A stretch of DNA of 32,000 nt from Candidatus Omnitrophota bacterium (GCA_963662715.1 OY759724.1:1920001-1952000); one strand, 5' to 3'; positions 1,533-1,694 are shown, counted from the stretch's first letter. The notes: a model not told the origin generated them from the letters alone. A program made the numbers and translations.

Positions 1533-1550
1533 ATGAAAACAGTCATCTGG
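1533..1550. repeat. Terminal inverted repeat (IRL) of IS copy B
   Basis: ATGAAAACAGTCATCTGG versus the reverse complement of 2758-2775, ATGAAAACGTGCCTCTGG (14/18 identical, first 8 exact). Confidence 0.6.
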
Positions 1551-1694
1551 TCAAGCATAAAATAGAAAGGCCAAATCATCCATTCGCGCTATATTCCCCA
1601 AAAGGACTTATGCGCACAATAGCGTATTATGACAGGGCGTGCCAATCACTACAACGGCCTTAAATATGCCAGAGTTGTTAACAGCATCACCCAT
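1551..1694 (-). ncRNA. Candidate IS-encoded guide RNA (bridge/seek RNA) in the 3' non-coding end. The strand is assumed to be co-directional with the transposase.
   Basis: Non-coding stretch between IRL and the transposase stop. Positions 1573-1583 echo the left junction 1524-1534 (10/11). Positions 1645-1658 echo the right junction 2779-2792 (13/14). Local stems flank the echoes, for example GGGCGT 1635-1640 with ACGGCC 1654-1659. Confidence 0.3.

What the first reader, a model, noticed from the sequence alone, without database searches (positions are those of the whole stretch)
1533..1694. The non-coding 3' end of the IS carries near-exact echoes of both insertion junctions: a candidate bridge/seek guide RNA
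The 162 nt between the IS left end and the transposase stop codon has no ORF. It contains three echoes of the junctions. (a) AAATCATCCAT (1573-1583) repeats the left junction AAGTCATCC|AT (1524-1534) at 10/11 positions. (b) ATCACTACAACGGC (1645-1658) repeats the right junction ATCACTA|CAGCGGC (2779-2792) at 13/14 positions. (c) AGTCATC (1541-1547) equals the attC flank 1525-1531. Echo (b) partly overlaps the 3' arm of a short stem (GGGCGT 1635-1640 with ACGGCC 1654-1659), with most of it in the 13-nt loop. IS110-family recombinases were shown in 2024 to use an element-encoded bispecific RNA (bridge RNA / seekRNA) whose loops match target and donor flanks. In the IS1111 branch this RNA lies 3' of the recombinase gene, as the long non-coding end does here. 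If this reading is right, the element would be an RNA-guided recombinase whose natural programme is an attC site.
Basis: partly seen in the sequence, partly recalled or inferred. Interest (0 to 1): 0.75.

Follow-up and report, generated by a model that had tools for sequence, protein, structure and literature searches.

The report
Bridge RNA of an attC-targeting IS
The non-coding tail of this insertion sequence encodes a two-loop guide RNA whose loops match the integron attC site it sits in and the element's own ends. It is a new and very divergent example of a mechanism described in 2024, not a new mechanism.

Summary
The three echoes are real. Echo (b) is far beyond chance (0/2000 shuffles), (a) is marginal alone (63/2000), and (c) is probably chance.

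On the minus strand, window 1567-1697 folds into two stem-internal-loop modules. This fold recurs next to 86 related IS110-family transposase genes: 91% of cells are paired and 22 of 23 pairs show compensatory changes.

All four loop strands co-vary with DNA across relatives (0 of 20,000 permutations each):
- Target loop, 5' side: complement of the right flank.
- Target loop, 3' side: left flank plus core TG.
- Donor loop, 5' side: complement of the IS left end.
- Donor loop, 3' side: IS right end plus core.

Both loops carry the same core dinucleotide in 55 of 62 elements.

So the bridge/seek-RNA reading is supported, with three corrections. The IS is 1530-2780 with core CA at 1528-1529 and 2781-2782. 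Echo (a) is the donor guide.

RNA-guided attC targeting was already shown for ISKpn4 and ISPst6 (Siddiquee 2024). This transposase is only 23% identical to ISKpn4's, yet it inserts at the same attC position and orientation. Verdict: new member of a known kind. Expression is untested.

The parts
1530..2780 (-). Insertion sequence proper (1251 bp): IS110 family with IS1111-type layout. Left end (upstream of tnp) at 2780, right end at 1530.
   Evidence: Boundaries come from the shared core, the rebuilt attC and the conserved termini of relatives. A second, partial copy at window 1-475 is 99.8% identical.
1528..1529 (-). Core dinucleotide TG (CA on the + strand) at the right-end junction.
   Evidence: The same dinucleotide flanks both ends. 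It is encoded in both RNA loops. Target-loop and donor-loop cores agree in 55/62 relatives, against a permuted mean of 24.8.
2781..2782 (-). Core dinucleotide TG (CA on the + strand) at the left-end junction.
1695..2702 (-). Transposase/recombinase gene, 335 aa from MYYIG (an upstream in-frame ATG at 2747 would give 350 aa).
   Evidence: Pfam DEDD_Tnp_IS110 and Transposase_20. NCBIfam NF033542 'IS110 family RNA-guided transposase', 230 bits against a cut-off of 140. IS621 structure 8wt6, E 6e-15. D7, E54, D92 and S257-G258 are invariant in 30 relatives.
1567..1697 (-). Candidate bridge/seek RNA: target-binding module followed by donor-binding module.
   Evidence: Covariance model R1 scores 80.9 bits, E 8e-19 (the window was one of the seed sequences).
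1688..1692 (-). Helix P1a, 5' strand GGGUG. Pairs with 1635-1639 (CGCCC).
   Evidence: All 5 pairs of this helix show changes on both sides across 83 distinct sequences; 92% of cells are paired. Coordinates, with the register corrected by one base by reading.
1682..1685 (-). Helix P1b, 5' strand GCUG. Pairs with 1641-1644 (UGGC).
   Evidence: 97% of cells paired; 4 of 4 pairs with compensatory changes.
1672..1681 (-). Right target guide UUAACAACUC, on the 5' side of the target loop. It is complementary to the top strand of the right flank: G of the core plus ACTTGTTAG. That gives 8 Watson-Crick pairs, one G-U wobble and one C-C mismatch at +2.
   Evidence: Own guide versus own right flank across 53 relatives sums to 315, against a permuted 220 +/- 8.8 (0/20000).
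1655..1671 (-). Hairpin P1c (UGGCA / 7-nt loop / GGCCG) separating the two target guides.
   Evidence: 94% of cells paired; 5 of 5 pairs with compensatory changes.
1645..1654 (-). Left target guide UUGUAG, then core UG, then a 2-nt extension AU, on the 3' side of the target loop. It equals the left flank CTGTAG|TG (position -6 would be a U-G wobble with the bottom strand), and AU equals the first two bases of the IS left end.
   Evidence: Own versus permuted sum 308 against 202 +/- 7.8 (0/20000). The extension matches the donor left end at 61/64 positions, against a permuted 55.5.
1630..1633 (-). Helix P2a, 5' strand GUCA. Pairs with 1570-1573 (UGGC) and closes the donor-binding module.
   Evidence: Register B fits all five members of the window's clade; register A fits the others. 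Pairs are compensatory (GC, UA, CG, AU).
1617..1628 (-). 5' side of the donor loop, AAUACGCUAUUG. GCUAU (about 1619-1623) is the right donor guide, complementary to IS left-end bases 1-5 (ATAGT): 4 Watson-Crick pairs plus one G-T wobble.
   Evidence: 117/160 matches across 32 relatives, against a permuted 76.8 +/- 4.8 (0/20000). ISKpn4 fits 5/5.
1585..1616 (-). Hairpin P2b (UGCGC ... GCGCG) with a variable-length distal part.
   Evidence: 94% of cells paired; 4 of 5 pairs with compensatory changes.
1574..1584 (-). 3' side of the donor loop, AAUGGAUGAUU. It reads left donor guide (IS right end ..ATGGA), core UG, then extension AU.
   Evidence: Last 3 nt of the right end plus core versus guide: 102/105 across 21 relatives, against a permuted 79.2 +/- 3.0 (0/20000). 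The 2-nt extension matches target right-flank positions 1-2 at 50/104, against 35.2 +/- 4.2 (4/10000).
1533..1550 (-). Subterminal inverted repeat, right-end arm (CCAGATGACTGTTTTCAT on the RNA strand). It contains echo (c).
   Evidence: 8/8 perfect core (ATGAAAAC/GTTTTCAT) and 14/18 overall with 2758-2775 (read). Conserved in relatives.
2758..2775 (-). Subterminal inverted repeat, left-end arm (ATGAAAACGTGCCTCTGG).
   Evidence: As for the right-end arm. It starts 5 nt inside the left end; the right arm ends 3 nt inside the right end.
1549..1554 (-). -35-like hexamer TTGACC near the right end. In a circular intermediate it would give TTGACC-N17-GATGAT across the junction.
   Evidence: The same junction-spanning TTGAC[ACT]-N16/17-GATGAT arrangement is seen in L082, L083, L001 and L005. 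This is an inference; no transcript data exist.
1515..1527 (+). R''-side fragment of the interrupted attC (GCTCTAACAAGT). It is the right target flank in RNA orientation.
   Evidence: Compared with the intact attC-like sites at 781-855 and 3593-3672.
2783..2850 (+). L''-to-R' remainder of the interrupted attC (CTACAGCGGCTCC...CCGCTGAGTTCGTTGCGCTAGAT). It is the left target flank in RNA orientation.
1..475 (-). Left-end part of a second copy of the same IS, cut by the window edge. It sits in another attC with the same flank, CTACAGCGG.
   Evidence: 99.8% identity over 475 bp. Flank read.

Best explanation
Window 1530-2780 is an IS110-family insertion sequence with the IS1111-type layout: subterminal inverted repeats and a long non-coding right end. 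The 3' non-coding region, transcribed with or after the transposase gene on the minus strand, most likely yields a bispecific guide RNA (bridge RNA / seekRNA) of about 125 nt.

The first module is an internal loop that reads the target.
- Its 5' strand (1672-1681) pairs with the top strand of the attC R''-side flank.
- Its 3' strand (1645-1654) pairs with the bottom strand of the L''-side flank plus the core TG.

The second module reads the donor, the joined IS ends in a circular intermediate.
- Its 5' strand pairs with the first 5 nt of the left end.
- Its 3' strand (1574-1584) pairs with the last nucleotides of the right end plus the same core.

By analogy with IS621, a recombinase tetramer would bring both duplexes together and exchange strands at the core through Ser257. 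That inserts the IS between the R'' and L'' boxes of attC, in one orientation.

What is shown here: the RNA architecture, its conservation, and co-variation of all four guides and the core with DNA.

What is inferred: transcription and processing, a junction promoter, protein binding and the chemistry.
For: 1. The echoes are real and (b) is non-random.
2. RNAalifold on 19 homologous non-coding regions finds compensatory changes in 13 of 19 pairs.
3. Model R1 finds 86 matches next to related transposase genes. On these, 91.3% of cells are paired against 66% in shuffles and 28-42% in slid controls, and 22 of 23 pairs change on both sides.
4. Guide-to-DNA permutation tests:
   - Left target guide versus left flank: 308 against 202 +/- 7.8.
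   - Right target guide versus right flank: 315 against 220 +/- 8.8.
   - Right donor guide versus left end: 117 against 76.8 +/- 4.8.
   - Left donor guide versus right end plus core: 102 against 79.2 +/- 3.0.
   - Each was reached by 0 of 20,000 permutations.
5. The same core dinucleotide (TG, AG or CG) appears in both loops in 55/62 elements. The permuted mean is 24.8 and the maximum 37.
6. The top-strand guide lies 5' of the bottom-strand guide, as reported for IS1111 seekRNAs (PMC11187229).
7. R1 aligns the ISKpn4 non-coding region with matching guides: AUAACAAUCA, UUUGAA+CG, UACAG and AUAUG+CG. An 82-nt seekRNA was mapped downstream of the ISKpn4 tnp gene (PMC11187229).
8. Within the window, the two occupied attCs carry CTGTAG|TG, which equals the guide. 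The intact sites at 781 and 3593 carry GAAG instead.
9. The protein is a curated-HMM member of 'IS110 family RNA-guided transposase'.
Against: - There are no expression data of any kind.
- The single-sequence minimum-free-energy fold is no more stable than shuffles (z = -0.45), and it pairs the guide loops with each other.
- R1 was built here with the window as a seed sequence, and alignment A3 is fitted to the model, so pair counts lean towards it.
- The ISKpn4 hit is borderline (20.2 bits, E about 0.008, with rough calibration).
- The right target guide has a C-C mismatch at +2 to every attC in this array.
- The position of IS621's essential D105 is Ser95 in this protein, so full catalytic competence is not certain.
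- Several relatives (L003, L086, L123) sit in flanks that do not match their guides.
Confidence: 0.88

Rival explanations
1. The echoes are chance similarities or relics of sequence drift in an AT-rich non-coding tail, with no function.
For: Echo (a) alone is reached by 3% of shuffles. Echo (c) is a 7-mer that relatives do not conserve. The single-sequence fold is not significant.
Against: Echo (b) was reached by 0 of 2000 shuffles. The same positions co-vary with flanks and ends in dozens of relatives with different targets. The helices show compensatory changes.
Confidence: 0.02
2. The repeated segments act as DNA, as internal copies of the ends bound by the transposase (subterminal binding sites), not as an RNA guide.
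For: IS1111-type elements do have subterminal repeats (1533-1550 and 2758-2775). The donor-side segment repeats the IS's own right end.
Against: A DNA-binding-site model does not explain several things. Segments match the target flanks, which are not part of the element. One guide of each pair is in complement and the other in sense. The flanking helices keep pairing through double substitutions. RNA dependence has been shown for related IS1111 members (PMC11187229).
Confidence: 0.04
3. The RNA module is intact in sequence but the element is a decaying or crippled copy: Ser at the fourth DEDD position and guide-target mismatches. On this view nothing is RNA-guided here any more.
For: IS621 D105 aligns with Ser95, and D105A abolishes IS621 activity (PMC11208158). 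There is a C-C mismatch at +2 of the right target guide.
Against: Two copies 99.8% identical sit in two different attCs whose flanks match the guide. Ser at that position is shared by 24 of 30 relatives with intact ORFs and co-varying RNAs, which suggests a tolerated clade feature rather than decay.
Confidence: 0.06

Closest known systems
seekRNAs of the attC-targeting IS1111 members ISKpn4 and ISPst6, with ISPa25 predicted (Siddiquee et al. 2024, PMC11187229; IS1111-attC group of Tetu & Holmes 2008)
   Same: - The RNA is encoded 3' of the transposase gene.
- The top-strand match lies 5' of the bottom-strand match.
- The target is the attC R''/L'' interval. ISKpn4 in pPC9 sits at AAC AATTCA^TTCAAGCC; this IS sits at AAC AAGTCA^CTACAGCGG, with the transposase gene in the same orientation relative to attC.
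- The right target guide has the same UAACAA core.
- Model R1 aligns the ISKpn4 non-coding region module for module.
   Different: - The transposase is only 23% identical to TnpKpn4.
- The closest relatives are uncultured Omnitrophota and Elusimicrobia sequences at 60-69% identity, not Gammaproteobacteria.
- The core encoded by the guides is TG here and CG in ISKpn4.
- Relatives at 45-53% identity target other sequences, so attC specificity was probably acquired separately.
- There is no experimental RNA evidence here.
IS621 bridge RNA and recombinase (Durrant et al. 2024, PMC11208160; Hiraizumi et al. 2024, PMC11208158)
   Same: - Two internal loops, each with a left and a right guide reading opposite strands.
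- A shared core dinucleotide in both loops.
- A recombinase with the conserved Asp-Glu-Asp residues and a Ser nucleophile (8wt6, E 6e-15 alone and 2e-23 with the profile).
- A likely junction promoter in the circular form.
- 2-nt guide extensions that match the partner DNA, resembling IS621's handshake guides.
   Different: - IS621 encodes its RNA in the left end, 5' of the gene, with the guide order reversed.
- IS621 has very short subterminal repeats and a CT core.
- Here the handshake-like extensions sit on the two left guides.
- The D105 equivalent is Ser.
ISEc11 and other IS1111 elements with a junction promoter
   Same: The -35 box lies in the right end and the -10 box forms across the circle junction (TTGACC-N17-GATGAT). 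No other obvious promoter for the RNA was found.
   Different: The promoter here is only a consensus match (9/12). A second promoter-like site lies inside the left end.
Group IIC-attC introns (PMC3001079, listed)
   Same: Another mobile element that homes into integron attC sites.
   Different: It is a ribozyme and reverse-transcriptase retroelement, with no DEDD/Ser recombinase and no two-loop guide.

Membership tests
IS110 family (DEDD/Ser RNA-guided recombinases) | Protein matches the family profiles over its full length. | tested here: met
   Pfam PF01548 and PF02371. NCBIfam NF033542, 230 bits against a cut-off of 140.
IS110 family (DEDD/Ser RNA-guided recombinases) | Catalytic Asp, Glu, Asp and the Ser-Gly nucleophile loop. 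| tested here: met
   D7, E54, D92 and S257 are invariant in 30 relatives; G258 is present in 27/30. They align with IS621 D11, E60, D102 and S241.
IS110 family (DEDD/Ser RNA-guided recombinases) | Fourth acidic residue of the DEDD motif (IS621 D105). | tested here: inconclusive
   Pairwise and profile alignments place Ser95 at this position. The column is Ser in 24/30 and Asp in 6/30 relatives. Sequence alone cannot tell whether another carboxylate, such as D101, takes over in three dimensions.
IS110 family (DEDD/Ser RNA-guided recombinases) | No long target duplication; a short core shared by donor and target. | tested here: met
   Only TCA (core CA plus one coincident base) is common to both junctions. 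The core is encoded in both loops.
IS1111 group | Subterminal inverted repeats of 7-17 bp. | tested here: met
   ATGAAAAC/GTTTTCAT is 8/8 and extends to 14/18. The arms lie 5 nt and 3 nt inside the ends. Conserved in relatives.
IS1111 group | Long non-coding right end carrying the RNA, 3' of the transposase gene. | tested here: met
   The right end is 165 nt (1530-1694) and the left end 78 nt (2703-2780). R1 hits 1567-1697.
IS1111 group | Transposase clusters with ISfinder IS1111 members in a phylogeny. | not tested
   The ISfinder set was not available as sequences. Only 23% identity to TnpKpn4 was measured. The length of 335 aa lies in the 330-350 range given for IS1111 (PMC11187229).
Bridge RNA / seekRNA | Conserved secondary structure with two internal loops. 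| tested here: met
   five helices, 22 of 23 pairs with compensatory changes, 91% of cells paired against 28-42% in slid controls.
Bridge RNA / seekRNA | Target-loop strands co-vary with the left and right insertion flanks, reading opposite strands. | tested here: met
   0 of 20,000 permutations reached the observed value on either side.
Bridge RNA / seekRNA | Donor-loop strands co-vary with the IS ends, and both loops encode the same core. | tested here: met
   (0 of 20,000 on either side). (55/62 cores concordant).
Bridge RNA / seekRNA | Match to the published IS110/IS1111 covariance models. | not testable with these tools
   Those models are not in Rfam 15. Rfam gives no hit for the window or for the ISKpn4 seekRNA region.
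Bridge RNA / seekRNA | The RNA is made, binds the recombinase and is needed for transposition. | not testable with these tools
   No transcript or biochemical data are available.
IS1111-attC group (ISPa21, ISKpn4, ISPst6, ISPa25) | Orientation-specific insertion at one position of attC. | tested here: met
   Same R''/L'' interval and orientation as ISKpn4 in pPC9. Two of two copies in the window do this. All five clade members at 59% identity or more carry the TTGTTA R''-type right flank, and those whose left flank is held (L001, L045, L081) lie in attC-like palindromes.
IS1111-attC group (ISPa21, ISKpn4, ISPst6, ISPa25) | Transposase related to the group. Its members share 46-90% identity according to PMC11187229. 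| tested here: not met
   23% identity to TnpKpn4. The element works like this group but is not filed in it.
Integron attC site (the target) | Imperfect palindrome R''-L''...L'-R' ending in GTTRRRY, one after each cassette ORF, in an array. | tested here: met
   Five sites lie in the first 4.3 kb: up to about 545, 781-855, 1515-1529 joined to 2781-2850, 3593-3672, and a degenerate one at about 4199-4275. Each follows a + strand ORF. L'' TTCAGCGG pairs with L' CCGCTGAG.
Integron attC site (the target) | Adjacent integron integrase and attI. | not testable with these tools
   None was found in the window. The array runs off the left edge of the window, where they would be.

The most novel reading that the evidence does not exclude
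A deep-branching clade of IS1111-type elements, found mainly in uncultured Omnitrophota and Elusimicrobia-like genomes, reprogrammed its target loop independently to hit the same nucleotide position and orientation of integron attC sites as the proteobacterial IS1111-attC group. It does so with a recombinase that carries Ser instead of the fourth catalytic Asp that IS621 needs. In this RNA type the handshake-like bases sit crosswise on the two left guides.
Probability: 0.4. Interest if true: 0.45.

Novelty: new member of a known kind. Interest (0 to 1): 0.3.

Why it matters
- The two-loop guide RNA logic holds in a transposase lineage only 23% identical to the studied attC-targeting elements, and in phyla known mostly from metagenomes.
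- attC sites look like a recurrent landing pad for RNA-guided insertion sequences, which affects cassette arrays of chromosomal integrons.
- The 86-member alignment, with its guide-to-flank rules, could help annotate such RNAs. Rfam currently misses them.
- The clade-wide Ser at the fourth DEDD position is a testable point about the catalytic requirements of bridge recombinases.
- None of this changes the known mechanism.

Tried and rejected
- **Rfam.** The whole window at gathering threshold and 1400-2950 at E up to 10 gave only noise. A control on the ISKpn4 seekRNA region also gave nothing, so Rfam simply has no such family.
- **Single-sequence folding.** z = -0.45. It is uninformative because the loops pair with each other in the minimum-free-energy fold.
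- **Other copies in the source genome.** The exact-protein look-up found no record. Cluster listing gave no names.
- **First guide-flank test.** Free scanning of 240-nt flanks was too noisy. It was replaced by a test restricted to positions next to the subterminal repeat.
- **attC finders.** A strict one found nothing and a loose one was mostly noise. The attC sites were defined by reading and by motif scan.
- **Tetu & Holmes 2008.** The paper is not held. The ISKpn4 insertion point was read from plasmid pPC9 instead.
Both were rejected for the reasons given in the observation check.
- **Structure prediction.** Not run, because the tool returns no coordinates and so could not settle the Ser95 question.

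Full report
**Observation**

The three echoes are in the sequence at the stated coordinates: (a) 10/11, extendable to 11/12; (b) 13/14; (c) 7/7. No ORF of 50 aa or more lies in 1533-1694.

Against 2000 dinucleotide-preserving shuffles of the internal non-coding region, a match like (b) never occurred. A match like (a) occurred in 3%.

**Surroundings**

Window 1695-2702 (minus strand) encodes a 335-aa protein.
- It carries Pfam DEDD_Tnp_IS110 and Transposase_20.
- It scores 230 bits on NCBIfam NF033542, 'IS110 family RNA-guided transposase', against a cut-off of 140.
- It matches the solved IS621 and ISCro4 recombinases.

A second copy of the element, 99.8% identical, is cut by the window start at 1-475.

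Both copies interrupt members of a repeat family with attC architecture. The R'' box ends in AAC, a spacer AAGTCAC follows, L'' TTCAGCGG pairs with L' CCGCTGAG, and R' is GTTAGAG-like. Five such sites lie in the first 4.3 kb, each after a + strand ORF, one of which is a VapC toxin cassette. No integrase is in the window. The array runs off the left edge.

**Boundaries**

Only TCA is shared by the two junctions. Relatives show conserved termini, written here on the transposase strand:
- Left end: TG|AT..T-ATGAAAA.
- Right end: TTTTCAT-[GA]GA|TG.

The IS is therefore 1530-2780, with core TG on that strand (CA on the + strand) at 1528-1529 and 2781-2782. The rebuilt target AAGTCA|CTACAGCGG matches the intact attC at 781 in 14 of 15 positions. 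Subterminal inverted repeats (8/8, extending to 14/18) lie at 1533-1550 and 2758-2775.

**The RNA**

A protein search gave 4470 relatives. The closest named ones are Omnitrophota and Elusimicrobia metagenome-assembled genomes at 60-69% identity. Scans of genome and metagenome collections yielded 160 loci.

[quoted passage not shown] RNAalifold predicts helices with compensatory changes in 13 of 19 pairs. After a fifth helix was added by hand, a covariance model (R1: 117 positions, 23 pairs) found 86 matches in these loci.

On the 83 distinct sequences:
- 91.3% of cells form standard pairs, against 66% in shuffles and 28-42% when partners are slid by 1-3 columns.
- 22 of 23 pairs show changes on both sides.

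One caveat applies: this alignment is fitted to the model, and the window was a seed sequence.

In the window the structure is as follows (with two one-base register corrections by reading):

| Element | Window coordinates |
|---|---|
| Helix P1a | 1688-1692 with 1635-1639 |
| Helix P1b | 1682-1685 with 1641-1644 |
| Loop strand, right target guide | 1672-1681 |
| Hairpin P1c | 1655-1671 |
| Loop strand, left target guide | 1645-1654 |
| Helix P2a | 1630-1633 with 1570-1573 |
| Loop strand, right donor guide side | 1617-1628 |
| Hairpin P2b | 1585-1616 |
| Loop strand, left donor guide | 1574-1584 |

**Guides**

Reading the loci shows that the loop strands track the DNA around each element.

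| Locus | Left flank | 3' strand of target loop |
|---|---|---|
| window | CTGTAG\|TG | UUGUAGUGAU |
| L081 | CTGGAT\|TG | UUGGAUUGAU |
| L001 | CTGAAG\|TG | UUGAAGUGAU |
| L082 | TAATC\|TG | UUAAUCUGAU |
| L073 | AACCTC\|CG | AACCUCCGAU |

Candidate positions were restricted to those next to the subterminal repeat. Own guides were then compared with guides of other loci.

| Guide | DNA partner | n | Observed | Permuted | Reached in 20,000 |
|---|---|---|---|---|---|
| Left target guide | Left flank | 57 | 308 | 202 +/- 7.8 | 0 |
| Right target guide | Right flank | 53 | 315 | 220 +/- 8.8 | 0 |
| Right donor guide | First 5 nt of left end | 32 | 117/160 | 76.8 +/- 4.8 | 0 |
| Left donor guide | Last 3 nt of right end plus core | 21 | 102/105 | 79.2 +/- 3.0 | 0 |

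The core dinucleotide written in the two loops agrees in 55 of 62 elements (31 TG, 20 AG, 3 CG and 1 GA). The permuted mean is 24.8 and the maximum 37.

The strand that pairs with the top strand lies 5' of the one that pairs with the bottom strand. Siddiquee et al. report this order for IS1111 seekRNAs.

So echo (b) is the left target guide plus core, and echo (a) is the left donor guide plus core. Echo (c) lies in the subterminal repeat, is absent from relatives, and is best treated as chance.

**Fit of this copy to its site**

- The left target guide matches CTGTAG|TG with one U-G wobble.
- The right target guide pairs with G-ACTTGTTAG, with one C-C mismatch at +2 and one G-U wobble.
- Of the attCs in the window, the two that carry TGTAG are occupied. 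The intact sites at 781 and 3593 carry GAAG and are empty.

This is a small sample, but it points in the expected direction.

**Comparison with the known**

Bridge RNAs (Durrant 2024, Hiraizumi 2024) and seekRNAs (Siddiquee 2024) established the mechanism. Durrant et al. predicted such RNAs in the right end of 93% of IS1111 elements.

Siddiquee et al. purified seekRNAs from the attC-targeting ISKpn4 and ISPst6 and predicted one for ISPa25. An attC-programmed RNA-guided recombinase is therefore already known.

ISKpn4 was read in plasmid pPC9. It sits in the same R''/L'' interval and in the same orientation as the element here. R1 aligns its non-coding region module by module, with guides that fit its flanks and ends (20.2 bits, E about 0.008).

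The two transposases share only 23% identity. Relatives of the window's protein at 45-53% identity have unrelated targets. The five closest relatives (59-66% identity) all carry the TTGTTA R''-type right flank, and those whose left flank is held lie in attC-like palindromes. Separate acquisition of attC specificity is therefore the more economical reading. No phylogeny was built to prove it.

**Mechanism, shown versus inferred**

Shown here:
- The architecture, its conservation and the four-way co-variation.
- The shared core.
- Conserved Asp, Glu, Asp and Ser-Gly in the protein.

Inferred from the IS621 and IS1111 literature:
- Excision to a circle.
- A junction promoter. TTGACC-N17-GATGAT would form across the joined ends, as in four relatives.
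- Transcription through the transposase gene into the RNA, followed by processing.
- Tetramer assembly and strand exchange at the core through Ser257.

**Weak points**

- There are no expression data.
- The single-sequence fold is not significant.
- The model was built here.
- Some relatives sit in non-matching flanks.
- IS621's essential D105 aligns with Ser95 in this protein and in 24 of 30 close relatives.

**Verdict**

This is a new and divergent member of a known kind. Interest is modest: a specialist would expect a bridge RNA in the right end of an IS1111-type element. The clade, the convergent attC site, the Ser95 variant and the crosswise 2-nt guide extensions are the parts worth a follow-up.

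Noticed in passing
window 2418-2420 (codon for Ser95 of the minus-strand protein 1695-2702): The fourth residue of the DEDD motif (IS621 D105, essential there) aligns with Ser in this transposase. 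The column is Ser in 24 of 30 close relatives and Asp in the other 6. The element still looks recently active.
   Followed up: partly
L028 2337-2456, L134 1078-1187, L124 1241-1353, L030 2350-2460, L102 2356-2463, L060, L121, L141, L157, L047: In about 11 relatives (34-39% identity) the same RNA fold lies between the left-end inverted repeat and the transposase ribosome-binding site. That is 5' of the gene instead of 3', and there is no downstream hit. The RNA module has moved between ends within this clade.
   Followed up: partly
window 1645-1646 and 1575-1576; alignment A3 columns 119-120 and 289-290: The two bases after the core in the left target guide match the first two bases of the IS left end (61/64). 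Those after the core in the left donor guide match the target's right flank (50/104, against 35 by chance). This crosswise pattern resembles the handshake guides of IS621, but sits on the left guides.
   Followed up: partly
window 1-475: A second copy of the IS, cut by the window edge, differs at one base (about 406 versus 2716, just upstream of the ribosome-binding site). It sits in another attC with the same CTACAGCGG flank.
   Followed up: yes
window 781-855, 3593-3672 and 4199-4275: These are unoccupied attC-like sites. The sites at 781 and 3593 differ from the left target guide (GAAG instead of GTAG). The last site is degenerate and probably marks the end of the cassette array. All attCs here carry C at +2, where the right target guide expects G.
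   Followed up: partly
window 925-1514: One cassette encodes a small antitoxin-like ORF overlapping a VapC PIN-domain toxin (NCBIfam NF047959, 90 bits). Toxin-antitoxin cassettes are typical of chromosomal integron arrays.
   Followed up: partly
window 1549-1554 with the joined ends; window 2746-2775 (minus strand): Two promoter-like sites were seen. TTGACC-N17-GATGAT would form only across a circle junction and is conserved in relatives. ATGAAA-N18-TATAAT lies inside the left end.
   Followed up: partly
L001 about 3530-3720 and L045 about 3103-3290: Two related elements from one metagenome-assembled genome carry the same extra segment of about 150-190 nt, with a long perfect hairpin, between the donor loop and the right-end terminus. 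In L045 the transposase match is also truncated. It looks like a nested insertion or a cargo segment.
   Followed up: no
L003 about 400-420 and 1650-1670: This relative's left flank does not match its left target guide, and its two flanks are inverted repeats of each other (CCCGGTGGGACA / TGTCCCCTGGGG). It may be an off-target or rearranged insertion.
   Followed up: no
L161 (ISKpn4 in pPC9) 1125-1135 and 2495-2510: Both ISKpn4 loops encode core CG, but the junctions in this plasmid read GG on the left and TG on the right. The core as read at this insertion does not equal the guide-encoded core.
   Followed up: no
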